25,928 bases of DNA, taken from a virus. Its lineage: Duplodnaviria; Heunggongvirae; Uroviricota; Caudoviricetes. The notes beneath the pieces were generated by a model. That model had not been told where the DNA came from, did no database searches, and saw only the letters and a list, made by a program, of their open reading frames with translations. A program made the position numbers and the translations under genes. Below are positions 1 through 13,524 of this stretch, one piece after another (position 1 is the first letter of the stretch; every line of letters begins with the position of its first letter). The DNA is taken from IMG/VR virus record IMGVR_UViG_2579778694_000005; one strand, given 5' to 3'.

Positions 1-615
1 GTGACCAAGCACAAAGTTTTCATCAGTTACCACCATGCTAATGACCAATGGTACAAAAACGAACTTGAAAAAATGAATGATGTTTTTGATATTTTTGTGA
101 ATCGCTCGGTATCACTTGGTGACATTGATGAAGAAGAAGAACCTCAAAAGATCAGAGAAATAATAAGGGATGAATATTTACGTGATACATCCGCTCTTAT
201 TTTACTCGTTGGGACTGAGACTAAAAATAGAAAGCATGTTGATTGGGAATTATATTCATCCATGAGGGATAGTCCCAGAAACGGCAAATCAGGTATTTTT
301 ATTATAAATCTTCCTTCAACAGGGACAAACAACATTAGAGCCAGTCATGGTGAAAATGAAAAAAATGAATTTCATCCTAATATAACCGAGTGGATAACAA
401 TCAACGACAGAACAACATATAAAGAAATATATCCATATATGCCTGAAAGAGTTATCGATAACTTGATGAGTGAAAAGTCATATATATCAATAGTCAACTG
501 GGATCAGATACACAATAACCCAGAAAACCTTAGAAAAATGATTGAGTTAACATATCAAGATAAAGATAAGTGCGAATACGTTTTTTCTACCCCAATGAGA
601 ATGCGTAATGGCTAG
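1..615 (+). CDS. TIR-domain protein, Thoeris ThsB-like (MTH538/DUF1863 type)
   Basis: N-terminal KVFISYHH strand, IRDEYL..TS..ILLVG.ET..RK.VDWEL with the conserved catalytic-position Glu, and GIFIINLP. GTG at position 1, so the RBS and any upstream partner are not visible. AT-rich. Confidence 0.85.
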   Translation: MTKHKVFISYHHANDQWYKNELEKMNDVFDIFVNRSVSLGDIDEEEEPQKIREIIRDEYLRDTSALILLVGTETKNRKHVDWELYSSMRDSPRNGKSGIFIINLPSTGTNNIRASHGENEKNEFHPNITEWITINDRTTYKEIYPYMPERVIDNLMSEKSYISIVNWDQIHNNPENLRKMIELTYQDKDKCEYVFSTPMRMRNG

Positions 616-622
616 CAGAAAC

Positions 623-653
623 AGTAAAGGGGAGTATGATACTCCCCTTTACT
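623..653. terminator. Hairpin between convergent passenger genes, probable bidirectional terminator
   Basis: Perfect 15-bp inverted repeat AGTAAAGGGGAGTAT-G-ATACTCCCCTTTACT between the stops at 615 and 656. Confidence 0.75.
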
Positions 654-655
654 TG

Positions 656-1363
656 TTACCAATCCCATTTGGTGGTGTTCACGTTAAATGTTTGTTGAAC
701 CCGTGATGTGAAAAAATCATTTACTACTTTAAAATCGTTACATATTTTACTGTAGTTATAGTATTGCTTTTGTATTTTATTTATAGGCGTCAGGTGAACT
801 TTTAATGGTGTATTAGTTATAACATCAATAACTTCATCCTTATCTGATATATATTTATACCATCTTTTATAATTATTTTGATTTTTAGTTAAAAATTTAT
901 TTAACACCATTAACATATCATTGCTAATATTATATAACTCATTGTCTTTTTTTGGATTCAATAGTTTCATTTCATCTCTAATAAATTGATATGTCTGATA
1001 ATATGATGAGATAACTTCATCGAATGCGTCCACATTTTTCTTCAACTTAAAGATAGCTCTTTTTGAATCCAGATGATTTTTTATACTTTTGCGATATAAC
1101 GTACCACTTTCATTGAACAGAACATTAACGCCGCCTAAACTTAATTTCTCTACTTTAAATGAGTATTTTTTTAAAAGATATAACGCTACAATTAGCCATA
1201 TAAAAATAGATATTAGTAGTATATATATAATACCAGTTACTAAAGGTTTGTTTTTATTAAATACGGTGTAAATTGAAGGTGCATATAATGAAAGATCCAC
1301 TGTACACATTACAGCAATTACCGCAATGAAAGCTATCGTCCAAATTATAACAAATGTTCTCAC
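656..1363 (-). CDS. Membrane protein with two N-terminal TM helices and a ~165-aa helical soluble domain; function unknown
   Basis: 235 aa, GTG start with AGGTGG RBS, 27 nt after the tnpR stop. Hydrophobic stretches FVIIWTIAFIAVIAVMC and LVTGIIYILLISIFIWLIVALYLL followed by basic KK. Very AT-rich. Confidence 0.8.
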   Translation of the reverse strand: MRTFVIIWTIAFIAVIAVMCTVDLSLYAPSIYTVFNKNKPLVTGIIYILLISIFIWLIVALYLLKKYSFKVEKLSLGGVNVLFNESGTLYRKSIKNHLDSKRAIFKLKKNVDAFDEVISSYYQTYQFIRDEMKLLNPKKDNELYNISNDMLMVLNKFLTKNQNNYKRWYKYISDKDEVIDVITNTPLKVHLTPINKIQKQYYNYSKICNDFKVVNDFFTSRVQQTFNVNTTKWDW

Positions 1364-1390
1364 AATTCCACCTTGTCAGTTGTAAGATAA

Positions 1391-2076
<686 letters not shown>

Positions 2077-2120
2077 GTTGCGAAATTGTTAATATATAAC
2101 CGTCAGGCAGGAAGGCCTAT

Positions 2121-5100
2121 ATGCCCGTCGATTTTCTGACCACTGAGCAGGAACTGAATTATGGTCGCTATGTTGCAGAACCCAATGACGTGCAGCTGGC
2201 GCGCTATTTTCATCTTGATGAGCGAGATCTTGCCTTCATTAACCAGCGACGGGGAAGGCATAACCGGCTGGGAATTGCGCTTCAGCTCACCACCGCCCGT
2301 TTTCTGGGCACCTTTCTGACAGATTTAACCCGGGTTCTGCCGGGTGTTCAGCAATTTGTCGCGGTGCAGCTTAATATCCGCCGTCCGGAAGTCCTTTCCC
2401 GCTACGCAGAACGGGATACCACCCTCAGAGAGCATACTGCGCTGATTAAGGAATATTACGGTTACCATGAATTTGGCGATTTCCCCTGGTCTTTCCGCCT
2501 GAAGCGCCTGCTATACACCCGTGCATGGCTCAGTAATGAGCGACCCGGCCTGATGTTTGATTTTGCCACCGCCTGGTTGCTTCAGAATAAGGTCCTGCTG
2601 CCCGGAGCAACCACACTTGTACGTCTCGTCAGTGAAATACGTGAACGGGCAAATCAGCAACTTTGGAAGAAACTGGCCGCGTTGCCGGACAGCTGGCAGA
2701 CCGCCCGCGTGACTGAGCTGCTGGACATTCCTGAGGGGCAGCGAATTTCACCGCTGGAGCAACTGAAAAAGGGACCTGTCACCGTCAGCGGTCCGGCATT
2801 TACCGAAGCGCTGGAGCGGTATATCCGGCTGCGAAACCTGGAGTTTTCCCGACTGAGTTTTACCGGTCTGCCCGCTATACAACTACGTAATCTGGCCCGT
2901 TACGCAGGCATGGCGTCGGTAAAATATATCGCGCGAATGCCACAGCAGAGAAAGCTGGCCGTACTCACCGCATTCGTTAAAGCACAGGAGACTGCGGCGC
3001 TGGATGAAGCCGTTGATGTGCTCGATATGCTTATACTGGATATCACTCGTGCGGCGAAGAAAACGGGGCAGAAAAAACGGCTCAGGACGCTGAAAGATCT
3101 TGACCGTGCTGCGCTACTGCTGGCGCAGGCATGTTCATTGTTGCTAGCTGAGCAGGCTGACGATGCTGAACTGAGGGAGACCATATTCAGCAGCATACCG
3201 AAAAGTAGGCTGGCAGAATCCGTCAGCAAGGTAAATGAGCTGGCCCGGCCTCAGAACAACAATTTCCATGACGAAATGGTGGAACAGTACGGGCGGGTAA
3301 AGCGTTTTCTTCCGGCGGTATTGCGCGACCTGCATTTCCAGGCAGCGCCAGCCGGAGAACATACGCTGTCCGCCATTCATTATCTGACCGAACTGAACGG
3401 CTCGAAAAAGCGCATCCTGGACGATGCGCCTGAACATATTATTACCGGCCCCTGGAAACGCCTGGTATACGATGCGGAGGGCCGGATACAGCGTGCCGGT
3501 TACTCGCTTTGTCTGCTGGAGCGCCTTCAGGATTCTTTGCGCCGTCGTGATCTCTGGCTGGAGAACAGTGATCGGTGGGGGGACCCGCGTCAAAAATTGC
3601 TTCAGGGAGCTGAATGGCAGGCACAACGCATCCCGGTATGTCGGGCGCTGGGTCATCCATCAGACGGAACTAAAGCAGCAGAACAACTGGCTACGCGGCT
3701 TGATGACACATGGAAATCAGTGGCTTCACGTTTTGCCTGCAACGCAGCGGTCAGCATAAGCAATGAAGGTAAGCATCCCTCACTGACGATTAGCAGTCTG
3801 GATAAACTGGATGAGCCACCGGCACTGATACAATTGAATCGTCGGGTAAGAGAATTGATCCCTCCGGTTGATCTGACGGAGCTGTTGCTTGAAATAGATG
3901 CCCGAACCGGTTTTACCCGCGAATTCAGCCACGTCAGTGAATCAGGTGCTCGGGCGCAGGATCTCCAGGTCAGTCTGTGCGCAACACTGCTGGCAGAAGC
4001 CTGCAATATAGGGCATGAACCCCTGATAAAGCATAATATTCCCGCGCTTACTCGCCATCGTCTGAGCTGGGTTAAACAAAATTATCTCAGGGCAGAAACG
4101 CTGGTCACCGCTAATGCACGGCTGGTTGATTTTCAGTCCACGCTGCCGCTCGCGGGGTACTGGGGAGGTGGTGAGGTTGCCTCCGCAGATGGTATGCGTT
4201 TTGTCACACCGGTTAAAACGGTTAATTCCGGACCAAATCGTAAATACTTTGGTTCAGGACGCGGTATCACCTGGTACAACTTCGTCTCCGATCAATACTC
4301 CGGTTTCCATGGCATTGTAGTTCCCGGGACGCTTCGTGATTCCATCTTTGTACTGGAAGGGCTTCTGGAGCAGCAGACCGGGCTGAATCCGGTAGAAATT
4401 ATGACGGACACGGCAGGATCCAGCGATATCATTTTTGGCCTGTTCTGGTTACTGGGCTACCAGTTTTCCCCTCGTCTGGCCGATGCAGGCGGGGCGATAT
4501 TCTGGCGGGCAGATAAAACGGCACATTATGGTGCCCTGAATGAGCTGGCCCGGGGATGTGTTGAACTGTCAAAAATAGAATCCCAATGGGATGAAATGAT
4601 GCGAATGGCGGGCTCACTGAAGCTTGGGACCATCCATGCATCAGAGCTTATTCGTTCACTGTTGAGAAGTAGCCGACCATCTGGTCTGGCTCAGGCGATT
4701 ATGGAAGTGGGCCGGGTCAACAAGACGTTGTATCTTCTCAACTATATCGATGATGAGGATTACCGGCGTCGGATCCTCACTCAGCTCAACCGGGGAGAAG
4801 GACGCCATGCAGTGGCTCGAGCCATTTGCTACGGACAACGTGGTGAGATTAGAAAACGCTACCGTGAAGGGCAGGAAGATCAACTCGGTGCTCTGGGTCT
4901 GGTGACCAATGCGGTTGTGCTGTGGAATACACTTTACATGCAGGAGGCGTTGTCACATCTTCGCAAATCGGGGGAAACACCTGAAGAGGAGCATCTGGCA
5001 AGATTATCGCCGCTGATACATGGCCATATAAATATGCTGGGACATTATACGTTTTCGTTACCGGAAGATATTCTGAAGGGCGAGTTAAGACCATTAAATT

Positions 5101-5129
5101 TGAATACAAACAATGAATTAACCTCTTAG
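2121..5129 (+). CDS. tnpA: Tn3-family DDE transposase
   Basis: 1002 aa, starts MPVDFLTTEQ...QLARYFHLD...HNRLGIALQ. Contains SADGMRF, IMTDTAG and ILTQLNRGEGRHAVARAI motifs. The stop codon lies inside the terminal IR. Confidence 0.98.
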   Translation: MPVDFLTTEQELNYGRYVAEPNDVQLARYFHLDERDLAFINQRRGRHNRLGIALQLTTARFLGTFLTDLTRVLPGVQQFVAVQLNIRRPEVLSRYAERDTTLREHTALIKEYYGYHEFGDFPWSFRLKRLLYTRAWLSNERPGLMFDFATAWLLQNKVLLPGATTLVRLVSEIRERANQQLWKKLAALPDSWQTARVTELLDIPEGQRISPLEQLKKGPVTVSGPAFTEALERYIRLRNLEFSRLSFTGLPAIQLRNLARYAGMASVKYIARMPQQRKLAVLTAFVKAQETAALDEAVDVLDMLILDITRAAKKTGQKKRLRTLKDLDRAALLLAQACSLLLAEQADDAELRETIFSSIPKSRLAESVSKVNELARPQNNNFHDEMVEQYGRVKRFLPAVLRDLHFQAAPAGEHTLSAIHYLTELNGSKKRILDDAPEHIITGPWKRLVYDAEGRIQRAGYSLCLLERLQDSLRRRDLWLENSDRWGDPRQKLLQGAEWQAQRIPVCRALGHPSDGTKAAEQLATRLDDTWKSVASRFACNAAVSISNEGKHPSLTISSLDKLDEPPALIQLNRRVRELIPPVDLTELLLEIDARTGFTREFSHVSESGARAQDLQVSLCATLLAEACNIGHEPLIKHNIPALTRHRLSWVKQNYLRAETLVTANARLVDFQSTLPLAGYWGGGEVASADGMRFVTPVKTVNSGPNRKYFGSGRGITWYNFVSDQYSGFHGIVVPGTLRDSIFVLEGLLEQQTGLNPVEIMTDTAGSSDIIFGLFWLLGYQFSPRLADAGGAIFWRADKTAHYGALNELARGCVELSKIESQWDEMMRMAGSLKLGTIHASELIRSLLRSSRPSGLAQAIMEVGRVNKTLYLLNYIDDEDYRRRILTQLNRGEGRHAVARAICYGQRGEIRKRYREGQEDQLGALGLVTNAVVLWNTLYMQEALSHLRKSGETPEEEHLARLSPLIHGHINMLGHYTFSLPEDILKGELRPLNLNTNNELTS

Positions 5130-5162
5130 CGTGGTTTTTTACATCATTGGACCTCGAACCCC
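5125..5162 (-). repeat. 38-bp terminal inverted repeat of the Tn3-family element
   Basis: Minus strand reads GGGGTTCGAGGTCCAATGATGTAAAAAACCACGCTAAG: GGGG start, TAAG end, exactly 38 bp. Adjacent AGATC (5163-5167) is the predicted 5-bp target duplication. Confidence 0.95.
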
Positions 5163-5626
5163 AGATCAAAGTATTTGGCCAGCTCCGGGGAGATATGGCG
5201 CTCCACCAGATAATCAGGAAGACGACCGTCAATGGGGAGTTCGTAATGGCGCGGGAGAGCTACTGGCCCTTCGAGTTCAACCTTGCTGGCCAGCACGACC
5301 TCTTCCGTCTTCGGCGCCCATCCTTGTGAGATCAGCGCGTTCTGGACGTACTCTTCAAAATCGCGACGGGATTTGCCGCTGTAGTGCTTGAGGAAGACCA
5401 GCTTGTTGAACTGAATCTCTTCGGGATGATCACCAGCAAAGCATTTGCCGACGCCATTGGTCAGGTTGAAATAAACCTTCCAGTTTGAGCTGCCGCATAC
5501 CGGACACTCCTTGATATTCACCTCACGTCCACGAGTACTGACGCCACCACGACGGTAGATGATTCCTTCCATATCGAGCCATTGTTCAAAATCCAGCTCG
5601 GTCAGTAATTCTTTCAAGTCGCTCAC
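5163..5626 (-). pseudogene. DNA primase, N-terminal zinc-binding part, truncated by the transposon
   Basis: Probable GTG start at 5626 (VSDLKELL...). CPVC...KCFAGDH zinc-finger pattern, directly downstream of the helicase. After ...AKYFDL the frame enters the IR (GFEVQ*) at about codon 155; no TOPRIM domain follows. Confidence 0.85.
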
Positions 5627-12743: not shown

Positions 12744-13524
12744 GAGCACCATAAATTGCACCGACTTTAGTCCATGTAGGCGCGTTCCCCGTGACAGCCT
12801 TACCCGCCGCGCCCCCTCCGTACATTGTCCCCAATCGTCCAGTAGCAGCCGCACCAGCAGCCCCCACATTACCTCCACTGCCGCATGTGTATTGAACAGC
12901 GGTAGAGCCGATCAAATATTGAGCACCAATCCCGGGAGCGGTTAGAGTGCCAGAAGTTGCCGCACGCGAAGTTGAAGCTGGCGGCCTTGTAGTGTTTGCA
13001 ACACCAAACGGGCGACCGCCACCACCCATACCACCATCGGCTGAGTTACCGCCGCCACCACCACCGCCACCGGCAATAGCGCCGTTATTGGTTATTCTTA
13101 AACGAGTCCCAATCCCGTTGTTAATAGCAGTGCCACCGGCAGCACCGCCACCTTTAACGCCACCATTACCCCCACGACCATAGACAGTTACACCTGCGTT
13201 GATTACCAGGCTGATATAAGAGTTGGTAAGCGAACTCGGGAAATCTAAACATGGCACGCCGCTGCTGGACGACACCAGATCCCCTGTAATGGTAACAACG
13301 ACTGGCGTCGCCCCCTGGGATTTTAAATAGTTGATCAGTGTGTCTTTGTTGTAGTTATGATTCGCACCGATGCTGTAATGAATTTCCTTAGAACGACCTG
13401 CTAACTGAGACATATTCCCAGCAGCAGACAATTGCACCGCCGTTCGAGCTGCACTCATCCATCTCTGGCCTGTCACACTGACAGCCGAAGACCCAATCCA
13501 ACCGGGAACACCGACAATTGGCAC
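12736..13524 (-). CDS. T-even gp38-type tail fibre tip adhesin (T2/S16 class)
   Basis: True start GTG 13524 (AAGGAG RBS), 262 aa. PIVGVPGWIGSSAV..TGQRWM N-terminus, GRSKEI, glycine-rich motifs GRGGNGG, IAGGGGGGGG, GGGGRPFG and GGGAAG, and the W..VG.I.G C-terminus. Confidence 0.9.
   Translation of the reverse strand: MPIVGVPGWIGSSAVSVTGQRWMSAARTAVQLSAAGNMSQLAGRSKEIHYSIGANHNYNKDTLINYLKSQGATPVVVTITGDLVSSSSGVPCLDFPSSLTNSYISLVINAGVTVYGRGGNGGVKGGGAAGGTAINNGIGTRLRITNNGAIAGGGGGGGGNSADGGMGGGGRPFGVANTTRPPASTSRAATSGTLTAPGIGAQYLIGSTAVQYTCGSGGNVGAAGAAATGRLGTMYGGGAAGKAVTGNAPTWTKVGAIYGARV

What the first reader, a model, noticed from the sequence alone, without database searches (positions are those of the whole stretch)
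1..1363. Transposon-borne TIR + 2-TM membrane protein pair: candidate non-canonical antiphage system
Seen: a ThsB-like TIR gene with its catalytic-position Glu (VDWEL) converges on a gene for a 2-TM protein, sharing one hairpin; both are much more AT-rich than the transposase. Established: ThsB TIRs make NAD-derived signals that activate a ThsA effector (SIR2-SLOG or TM-Macro). The ~165-aa soluble part here (D.V..SYY..Y..IR..MK...LN.FLTK.Q..Y.RWY...IQKQY..Y.....D...VN) looks all-helical and does not resemble either to me. Inference: this is a TIR signalling system with a different membrane effector, mobilised on a Tn3 element. It may relate to the described 2TM/1TM/TIR system, and further components may lie upstream of position 1.
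Basis: partly seen in the sequence, partly recalled or inferred. Interest (0 to 1): 0.75.

Follow-up and report, generated by a model that had tools for sequence, protein, structure and literature searches.

The report
Transposon-borne type VI Thoeris defence system
The TIR gene and the two-helix membrane protein gene are a real antiphage signalling pair of a kind described in late 2025 (type VI Thoeris, ThsB plus ThsG), here carried with a second TIR gene on a Tn3-family transposon that spreads on enterobacterial plasmids.

Summary
Window 1-615 (+) encodes a 204-aa ThsB-type TIR protein whose Glu83 is invariant. Window 656-1363 (-) encodes a 235-aa protein with two N-terminal TM helices. The two genes converge on a 14-bp hairpin (623-653). 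Their GC is 28-34%, against 52-56% for the transposase.

The membrane protein has no Pfam, PADLOC, NCBIfam or PDB match. It is 42-47% identical over its full length to the effectors next to two E. coli TIR proteins (strains ACN001/ACN002 and S1). Those proteins are letter-identical to ThsBs of validated type VI Thoeris systems (Yirmiya et al., bioRxiv 2025; signal 2'cADPR, effector ThsG "DUF6650 and TM").

Every homologue locus examined has an adjacent TIR gene. A wider sister family is also TIR-linked (58 of 61 loci).

New details:
- It is cargo of a 6.2-kb Tn3-family element found on more than 50 plasmids.
- The pair is convergent rather than operonic.
- A third passenger lies just upstream of position 1: a DUF1883-TIR gene that recurs beside ThsG-like genes in several phyla and may be a second sensor.

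The parts
1..615 (+). thsB: 204-aa ThsB-type TIR protein, catalytic-position Glu83
   Evidence: PF08937 at E 1.3e-18. PADLOC ThsB models at 4.5e-11 and PDC-M50B at 2e-12. Glu83 is invariant in alignment A2. The N-terminal 98 aa are 41% identical to the validated type VI ThsB of E. coli ACN001/ACN002.
623..653 (.). Shared hairpin between the two convergent stop codons; likely bidirectional terminator
   Evidence: 14-bp stem with 3-nt loop, -23.4 kcal/mol, z -5.4; 0 of 200 shuffles fold as well.
656..1363 (-). thsG-like effector: 235 aa, two N-terminal TM helices plus a ~170-aa cytosolic domain (beta-hairpin and four long helices)
   Evidence: AF2 model m0ae7f2087070, pLDDT 82.7. It is 42% and 47% identical over full length to the effectors beside the validated type VI ThsBs of E. 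coli ACN002 and S1 (E 5e-68 and 1e-63). TIR adjacency holds in every homologue locus.
1391..1957 (-). tnpR, serine resolvase of the Tn3-family element; thsG starts 27 bp downstream on the same strand
   Evidence: Resolvase PF00239 at E 8e-39 plus HTH_7. Annotated as WP_004098835.1 in plasmid copies.
2121..5129 (+). tnpA, Tn3-family DDE transposase (1002 aa)
   Evidence: DDE_Tnp_Tn3 at E 1e-152 and DUF4158 at E 1e-53.
5125..5162 (.). Right terminal inverted repeat of the transposon (ends ...GAACCCC at 5162); beyond it lies the truncated primase gene of the phage-plasmid
   Evidence: An inverted repeat pairs L004 6943-7012 with 13094-13163, where L004 8001 equals window 1. Sequences read.

Best explanation
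Window 1-1363 holds a type VI Thoeris antiphage system. thsB (1-615) encodes the TIR sensor and signal synthase. The 2-TM gene (656-1363) encodes a ThsG-type membrane effector.

Proposed mechanism:
1. Phage infection activates ThsB. This is inferred.
2. ThsB's TIR domain, using Glu83, converts NAD+ into the cyclic ADP-ribose isomer 2'cADPR. This was shown for three type VI ThsBs in the 2025 preprint and is inferred here.
3. The signal binds the conserved cytosolic domain of ThsG. That domain carries invariant Lys and Arg residues (K73, K101, R102, R129, R167) and many invariant aromatic residues. In the preprint's AF3 models ThsG is a ring hexamer with basic pockets between protomers.
4. The N-terminal TM helices then damage or depolarise the inner membrane, stopping growth of the infected cell (abortive infection).

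The pair is cargo of a ~6.2-kb Tn3-family transposon together with a DUF1883-TIR gene just upstream of the window. In this record the transposon's right end abuts a truncated phage-plasmid primase gene.
For: 1. Link to validated systems. The TIR proteins of E. coli ACN002 and S1 are letter-identical to the TIR domain sequences listed for IMG genes 2638504641 (E. coli ACN001) and 2719191281 (E. coli S1) in Table S1 of Yirmiya et al.. Table S2 of that paper lists both as type VI Thoeris with effector 'DUF6650 and TM' and defence 'Yes'.
2. Effector homology. The genes adjacent to those TIRs encode 243- and 242-aa proteins. They align to the window's 2-TM protein over its full length at 42% and 47% identity (E 5e-68 and 1e-63).
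3. Conserved TIR adjacency. It is seen in Providencia P2-like prophages (in the gene A-to-portal gap), Acinetobacter, Serratia, Bacillus, Amphibacillus, Levilactobacillus, Cytobacillus, Trichococcus and Weissella. Gene order and orientation vary between them.
4. Sister family. A related family (hhalign probability 99.1%) has a TIR gene within 1.5 kb in 58 of the 61 loci with enough flanking DNA.
5. Catalytic residue. Glu83 is invariant in the linked TIRs.
6. Mechanism. Type VI signal and effector behaviour are taken from the preprint.
7. Mobility. The element is identical or near-identical in at least 57 plasmid records from Klebsiella, Enterobacter, Citrobacter and E. coli.
Against: - There is no experiment on this copy.
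- Beyond its first ~98 residues, the window's ThsB does not align with the two validated E. coli ThsBs. By eye it is closer to the validated metagenomic gammaproteobacterial ThsB in Table S1. That comparison was not computed.
- Effector identity is only 42-47%, so ligand specificity could differ.
- The Pfam DUF6650 model (PF20355) hits neither this protein nor any of about 90 relatives scanned, and it also misses the two validated E. coli effectors. The only support for the DUF6650 label is a language-model look-alike score of 0.82.
- The validated operons are co-directional with overlapping genes. This pair is convergent.
Confidence: 0.82

Rival explanations
1. Three-component variant. The DUF1883-TIR gene upstream of window position 1 belongs to the same system as a second sensor and synthase. 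It would feed the same signal to ThsG and widen the range of phages sensed. This extends the best explanation rather than excluding it.
For: Sets of a ThsG-type gene, a DUF1883-TIR gene and another TIR gene recur in unrelated settings:
- the transposon;
- an uncultured gammaproteobacterial contig, L007;
- Acinetobacter, L014;
- a tight three-gene operon, L106;
- Vibrio L047 and a cyanobacterium L065;
- 8 of 79 sister-family loci, including Clostridium, Butyrivibrio and Thermoguttaceae.

In Bacillus fungorum (L015) the only TIR beside the ThsG homologue is a coiled-coil TIR. Its TIR domain matches that of the DUF1883-TIR protein at E 1e-36.

DUF1883-TIRs group with AbTir, and AbTir makes 2'cADPR, which is the type VI signal.
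Against: - 75 of 80 DUF1883-TIR loci in species-representative genomes have no ThsG-type gene within 5 kb.
- PADLOC models the protein as a single-gene candidate, PDC-S66 (E 6e-71).
- Defence genes cluster in islands, so adjacency alone is weak evidence.
- The two P2-prophage versions and the validated E. coli systems work without it.
Confidence: 0.35
2. A Thoeris-like system of a separate, still unnamed type. Same logic, but the ThsB makes a different NAD-derived signal, and the 2-TM family should not be merged with DUF6650/ThsG.
For: - PF20355 does not detect any member.
- Structure searches return only unnamed clusters, and none of the named hits is DUF6650.
- The window's ThsB belongs to a different subtype from the two validated E. 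coli ThsBs: about 27% identity overall, with a different C-terminal half.
Against: - Direct full-length homology to the effectors of validated type VI systems.
- Both ThsB subtypes pair with the same effector family.
- The preprint's own TIR cluster 2741407742 holds both the E. coli ThsBs and a ThsB resembling the window's.
Confidence: 0.1
3. The pair acts mainly as an addiction or stabilisation module for the transposon or plasmid, like the toxin-antitoxin passengers of other Tn3 elements, rather than as phage defence.
For: It sits beside tnpR on a Tn3-family element on plasmids. A membrane-damaging protein could act as a toxin.
Against: - Homologues are mostly chromosomal or prophage-borne in defence hotspots.
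- Close homologues protect against phages.
- No antitoxin-like partner is evident.
Confidence: 0.03
4. It is a form of the three-gene 2TM/1TM/TIR system of P2-like phage AC1 (Rousset et al. 2022).
For: Both combine a TIR protein with TM proteins. Homologues of this pair occupy the same P2 gene A-to-portal hotspot.
Against: - There is no third (1-TM) gene; only two genes fill the Providencia and E. coli hotspots.
- The 2-TM protein has no PADLOC hit.
- It has no tblastn match in 50,697 phage records.
Confidence: 0.02

Closest known systems
Type VI Thoeris (ThsB + ThsG; Yirmiya et al., bioRxiv 2025, doi 10.64898/2025.12.03.692087), specifically the 'DUF6650 and TM' systems of E. coli S1 and ACN001
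   Same: - ThsB-type TIR with the catalytic Glu.
- Adjacent ~240-aa effector with two N-terminal TM helices and a homologous cytosolic domain (42-47% identity over full length).
- Relatives sit in P2-like prophage hotspots.
   Different: - The genes converge on a shared hairpin instead of forming a co-directional overlapping operon.
- The ThsB is of a second subtype, with a different C-terminal half.
- The pair is carried with a DUF1883-TIR gene on a Tn3-family transposon on plasmids.
- Neither the signal nor defence has been tested for this copy.
Type II Thoeris (ThsB + TM-Macro effector; signal His-ADPR)
   Same: A TIR signal synthase is paired with a small effector that has N-terminal TM helices and a cytosolic ligand-binding domain. 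Likely membrane disruption.
   Different: The cytosolic domain is a beta-hairpin plus helical bundle, not a Macro fold. No Macro hit by Pfam, PADLOC or fold search.
Type VII Thoeris / CBASS SLATT effectors (2-TM pore-forming effectors)
   Same: Two TM helices followed by a helical cytosolic region, activated by a nucleotide signal.
   Different: No SLATT Pfam hit in any of the 19 members scanned. The SLATT entry in the AFDB search scores only TM 0.24.
Rst_2TM_1TM_TIR of P2-like phage AC1 (Rousset et al. 2022, PMC9122126)
   Same: A TIR protein plus TM proteins in the P2 hotspot.
   Different: That system has three genes, two of them encoding TM proteins; here there is one TM protein. No sequence link was found with the tools available.
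PADLOC candidate PDC-S66 (single-gene DUF1883-TIR) and AbTir-clade TIR NADases
   Same: The upstream passenger gene matches PDC-S66 at E 6e-71 and belongs to the DUF1883-TIR clade, which groups with AbTir.
   Different: Here it sits beside a ThsB/ThsG pair, which is the minority context for this protein (about 5-10% of loci).

Membership tests
Type VI Thoeris | ThsB: a TIR-domain protein with the catalytic Glu, encoded next to the effector | tested here: met
   PF08937 at E 1.3e-18. Glu83 is invariant in 15 effector-linked TIRs. The two genes are 40 bp apart and convergent.
Type VI Thoeris | Effector ThsG: homologous to the effectors of experimentally validated type VI systems | tested here: met
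   42% and 47% identity over full length to the effectors beside the validated ThsBs of E. coli ACN001/ACN002 and S1.
Type VI Thoeris | Effector carries Pfam DUF6650 (PF20355) | tested here: inconclusive
   hmmscan finds no PF20355 hit at E up to 10 in this protein or in the two validated E. coli effectors. It also finds none among the 69 sister-family and related proteins scanned at E cut-offs of 0.01-1. Because the HMM misses validated members, the test cannot discriminate. An ESM-Atlas feature search lists a DUF6650 cluster third at 0.82, which is a lead only.
Type VI Thoeris | Signal is 2'cADPR, made on infection and toxic to effector-bearing cells | not testable with these tools
   Needs LC-MS and growth assays. 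Shown for other type VI systems in the preprint.
Type VI Thoeris | Effector forms a ring homo-oligomer with basic inter-protomer pockets | not testable with these tools
The monomer model shows conserved basic and aromatic residues in the soluble domain.
Type VI Thoeris | Protects against phages | not testable with these tools
   Shown only for homologues.
Type II Thoeris | Effector with a Macro domain | tested here: not met
   No Macro hit in Pfam or PADLOC. The fold is a beta-hairpin plus helices.
Type I Thoeris | SIR2-SLOG ThsA next to ThsB | tested here: not met
   The neighbours are DUF1883-TIR, the 2-TM protein and tnpR. No SIR2 or SLOG protein is present.
Rst_2TM_1TM_TIR | Three genes: a 2-TM protein, a 1-TM protein and a TIR protein | tested here: not met
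   No third TM gene in the cassette or in the two-gene P2-hotspot versions.
PADLOC PDC-M50 | Both PDC-M50A and PDC-M50B present | tested here: not met
   The TIR hits PDC-M50B weakly (2e-12, 45 bits). The 2-TM protein hits no PADLOC model at E up to 1.
Tn3-family transposon | Terminal inverted repeats starting GGGG, a DDE_Tnp_Tn3 transposase and a serine resolvase | tested here: met
   Inverted repeats of up to 70 nt at 83% complementarity; ends at L004 6944 and window 5162. tnpA and tnpR domains. Flanks differ between plasmids exactly at the IR ends.

The most novel reading that the evidence does not exclude
The transposon carries a two-sensor, one-effector Thoeris. The DUF1883-TIR protein belongs to the AbTir clade, whose founding member makes 2'cADPR. 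It would act as a second infection sensor, activating the same ThsG membrane effector as ThsB. This would explain why DUF1883-TIR genes recur beside ThsG-type genes in Proteobacteria, Clostridia, Cyanobacteria and Planctomycetes. It would also give a cellular role to a very widespread, highly conserved TIR family, and possibly to AbTir-like proteins that show no defence on their own.
Probability: 0.35. Interest if true: 0.55.

Novelty: new member of a known kind. Interest (0 to 1): 0.33.

Why it matters
- It shows that a recently defined Thoeris type is spreading on a Tn3-family transposon. The element sits on clinical enterobacterial plasmids, including KPC plasmids such as pKPC-933d, and on a phage-plasmid. 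Phage resistance may therefore travel with antibiotic-resistance replicons, which matters for phage therapy.
- It shows that 2023-era tools (PADLOC-DB 2.0.0, Pfam) miss the effector family entirely. The family and its sister family occur in about 290 species-representative genomes and are almost always TIR-linked.
- The recurrent DUF1883-TIR partner gives a testable idea about multi-sensor Thoeris systems and about the function of AbTir-like TIRs.

Tried and rejected
Domain and fold searches on the 2-TM protein:
- Pfam, NCBIfam and PADLOC scans gave nothing.
- Foldseek against the PDB gave nothing at E up to 0.001.
- AFDB clusters gave only weak helical look-alikes, such as DUF4230 and DUF4129, at TM 0.45-0.5.
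- The ESM Atlas gave only unnamed clusters.

Attempts to fetch true DUF6650 proteins for a profile-profile test all failed, so the DUF6650 relation stays untested at that level:
- PF20355 was searched in 105 Bacillaceae genomes, 401 genomes of the class of Bacillus fungorum, 401 genomes of the phylum that holds Westiellopsis, and 10 other genomes.
- It gave no hit over the family cut-off.

Other steps that led nowhere:
- Phage records hold no homologue of the 2-TM protein.
- Accession-number searches of the literature found nothing.
- No paper combines Tn3, Thoeris and passenger genes.
- The supplementary tables of the preprint are truncated in the held copy, so I could not check whether this exact TIR is listed.
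- Wang et al. 2024 (PMC11350192) screened only chromosomal E. coli TIR loci and holds no accessible accession list. A match to their TIR-I to TIR-IX systems could not be tested.
- The idea that the 2-TM gene is unrelated to the TIR gene was rejected because of the universal adjacency.

Full report
WHAT IS IN THE SEQUENCE

The window opens with GTG at position 1, the start of a 204-aa ORF (1-615, +). A 235-aa ORF lies at 656-1363 on the minus strand. The first is a ThsB-type TIR protein: PF08937 at E 1.3e-18, PADLOC ThsB models down to 4.5e-11, and the candidate PDC-M50B at 2e-12. The second has no hit in Pfam, PADLOC or NCBIfam.

Between the two stop codons lies a 14-bp-stem hairpin at 623-653. 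It folds at -23.4 kcal/mol, z -5.4, and no shuffle folds as well. GC is 0.28-0.34 over 1-1500 and 0.52-0.56 over the transposase.

A serine resolvase gene (1391-1957, -) ends 27 bp upstream of the 2-TM start, on the same strand. A Tn3-family transposase gene follows (2121-5129, +). All parts of the observation are confirmed.

THE MOBILE ELEMENT AND THE MISSING UPSTREAM PART

The record is an IMG/VR provirus record (the window is bases 1-25928 of 89,928), and it begins exactly at the TIR start. Window 1-2100 is 99.8-100% identical to the best-matching plasmids of Citrobacter, Klebsiella, Enterobacter and E. coli. In all, 57 records match at 99% or more and 76 cover at least 80% of the query.

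In three plasmids with different surroundings, the same 255-aa gene lies upstream of and divergent from the TIR gene. It encodes DUF1883 (E 1e-34) fused to a canonical TIR (TIR_2 at 1.6e-20). It matches the PADLOC single-gene candidate PDC-S66 at 6e-71.

Inverted repeats resembling the Tn3 ends (starting GGGGTTTGAAGG) bound the element. One end is 1057 bp upstream of window position 1 and the other is at window 5162, giving about 6.2 kb. Plasmid flanks diverge exactly there.

The cargo is therefore three genes: DUF1883-TIR, thsB-like TIR and the 2-TM gene. A plasmid with the same right junction as the window is pFY-1.p1 of Enterobacter hormaechei.

WHAT THE 2-TM PROTEIN IS

An alignment of 19 homologues (A1) gave an AF2 model with pLDDT 82.7, above 90 in the soluble part. 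It shows:
- TM helices at 2-21 and 39-63;
- a beta-hairpin at 68-84;
- helices at 86-99, 114-134, 141-175 and 204-226.

No solved structure matches. AlphaFold DB and ESM Atlas give only unnamed or weakly similar clusters. It is not a Macro, SLOG, SIR2 or SLATT protein.

LINKAGE TO TIR GENES

Homologues at 36-72% identity were placed in their genomes. In every case a TIR gene is adjacent or one gene away:
- two Providencia P2-like prophages, where the pair alone fills the gap between replication gene A and the portal gene;
- an uncultured contig and an Acinetobacter island that also hold a TIR-SLOG protein and a DUF1883-TIR;
- Bacillus, with two ThsB genes;
- Serratia, two more Acinetobacter, Amphibacillus, Levilactobacillus, Cytobacillus, Trichococcus and Weissella.

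Orientation varies. It is convergent in the enterobacterial, Providencia and two of the Acinetobacter loci (L012, L014). It is co-directional with overlapping stop and start codons in A. idrijaensis (L013) and the four Firmicutes loci L017-L020. Conserved adjacency across phyla with shuffled orientation is strong evidence of a functional pair.

An exhaustive profile search found 181 cluster representatives. The weaker tier forms a sister family (A3; hhalign probability 99.1% to A1). It was found in 280 species-representative genomes. A TIR gene lies within 1.5 kb in 73 of 79 loci, and in 58 of the 61 loci with enough flanking DNA.

IDENTIFICATION WITH A KNOWN SYSTEM

A sensitive DNA search of E. 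coli genomes found 65%-identical chromosomal matches to the soluble-domain region, among them strains ACN002 and S1. In both, a 242-243-aa hypothetical gene overlaps a downstream TIR gene. In ACN002 the pair sits in a P2-like prophage remnant.

The two TIR proteins are letter-identical to the TIR domain sequences of IMG genes 2638504641 (E. coli ACN001) and 2719191281 (E. coli S1) in Table S1 of Yirmiya et al., bioRxiv 2025. Table S2 of that paper lists both as type VI Thoeris, effector 'DUF6650 and TM', cloned in E. coli MG1655, defence 'Yes'. For S1 the gene numbering agrees with the neighbouring 242-aa gene being the effector.

The window's 2-TM protein aligns with these two effectors over its full length at 42% and 47% identity (E 5e-68 and 1e-63). 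The preprint shows three things for type VI systems:
- their ThsBs make 2'cADPR on infection;
- 2'cADPR, but not other isomers, arrests cells carrying the system;
- AF3 models the effector ThsG as a ring hexamer with basic pockets, and TM-bearing forms probably breach the membrane.

I therefore file the window pair as a type VI Thoeris system.

CAVEATS

- The Pfam DUF6650 model detects neither this protein nor the validated E. coli effectors. It also misses 69 other relatives and sister-family proteins scanned. A language-model look-alike search lists a DUF6650 cluster only third, at 0.82. I could not obtain true DUF6650 sequences for a profile-profile test.
- The window's ThsB belongs to a subtype that differs from the E. 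coli ACN/S1 ThsBs after residue ~98. By eye it resembles the validated metagenomic gammaproteobacterial ThsB of the same published TIR cluster. That comparison was not computed.
- Signal identity and defence are inferred for this copy.

THE THIRD GENE

DUF1883-TIR proteins are very conserved (60-85% identity across many phyla) and are usually alone. Only 5 of 80 loci hold a ThsG-type gene within 5 kb.

Even so, sets of a ThsG-type gene, a DUF1883-TIR and another TIR recur independently:
- the transposon;
- L007 and L014;
- a tight operon, L106;
- Vibrio L047 and the cyanobacterial L065;
- 8 of 79 sister-family loci.

In Bacillus fungorum a coiled-coil TIR of the same TIR clade is the only TIR beside the ThsG homologue. 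DUF1883-TIRs group with AbTir, which makes 2'cADPR. A two-sensor system is plausible. I put it at about 0.35.

VERDICT

The system is real, ordered and very probably defensive. It belongs to a type published in December 2025, so it is a new member of a known kind.

The new details are:
- Tn3 carriage on clinical plasmids and a phage-plasmid;
- the convergent layout with a shared terminator;
- the recurrent DUF1883-TIR partner;
- the effector family has no Pfam match and no hit in PADLOC-DB 2.0.0 (2023).

Noticed in passing
L004:7065-7832 (-), i.e. 168-935 bp upstream of window position 1, outside the window: A third passenger gene of the transposon. It encodes a 255-aa DUF1883-TIR protein (PADLOC PDC-S66 at 6e-71), divergent from thsB. 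The protein is conserved at 60-85% identity across many phyla and recurs beside ThsG-type genes.
   Followed up: yes
L105:3230-3250 (pFY-1.p1, NZ_CP090793.1) and window 5159-5170: This plasmid shares the window's right junction. In it, the left IR is preceded by GTCAC inside a fragment that continues the T4SS/T2SS-family ATPase gene seen intact in other plasmids. It is not preceded by AGATC or the rest of the primase. The two ends therefore have no matching 5-bp target duplication, and the primase disruption is not a simple insertion. About 27 kb of extra plasmid DNA lies to the left.
   Followed up: partly
L016:1187-5687 (Amphibacillus marinus): The ThsB and ThsG homologues sit within a co-directional run of 5-hmdU DNA kinase, thymidylate-synthase-like and Nmad2 genes (a thymidine hypermodification set). 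The Nmad2 gene lies between thsB and thsG.
   Followed up: no
L007:5348-10626 and L014:2301-7067: These islands combine the ThsG homologue with two ThsB genes, a ~680-aa TIR-SLOG (LD_cluster2) protein and a DUF1883-TIR. Several Thoeris effectors and sensors are packed together.
   Followed up: partly
L108-L187 (alignments A3 and A4): A sister family of ThsG-like proteins (about 200-280 aa) occurs in 280 species-representative genomes of many phyla and one archaeal MAG. Its soluble domain matches alignment A1 at hhalign probability 99.1%. It has no Pfam match and almost always lies next to TIR genes.
   Followed up: partly
L047:5001-6904 (Vibrio sp. TBV020) and L065:3394-5780 (cyanobacterial MAG): TM-less ThsG-like proteins (159 and 170 aa) are flanked by a DUF1883-TIR and another TIR gene, all co-directional. 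These are possible soluble-effector variants.
   Followed up: partly
L006:6001-7412, L009:228-1658, L021:3331-4679: In Providencia and E. coli P2-like prophages the thsG/thsB pair alone occupies the gene A-to-portal gap. This is the tin/old defence hotspot described by Rousset et al. 2022.
   Followed up: partly
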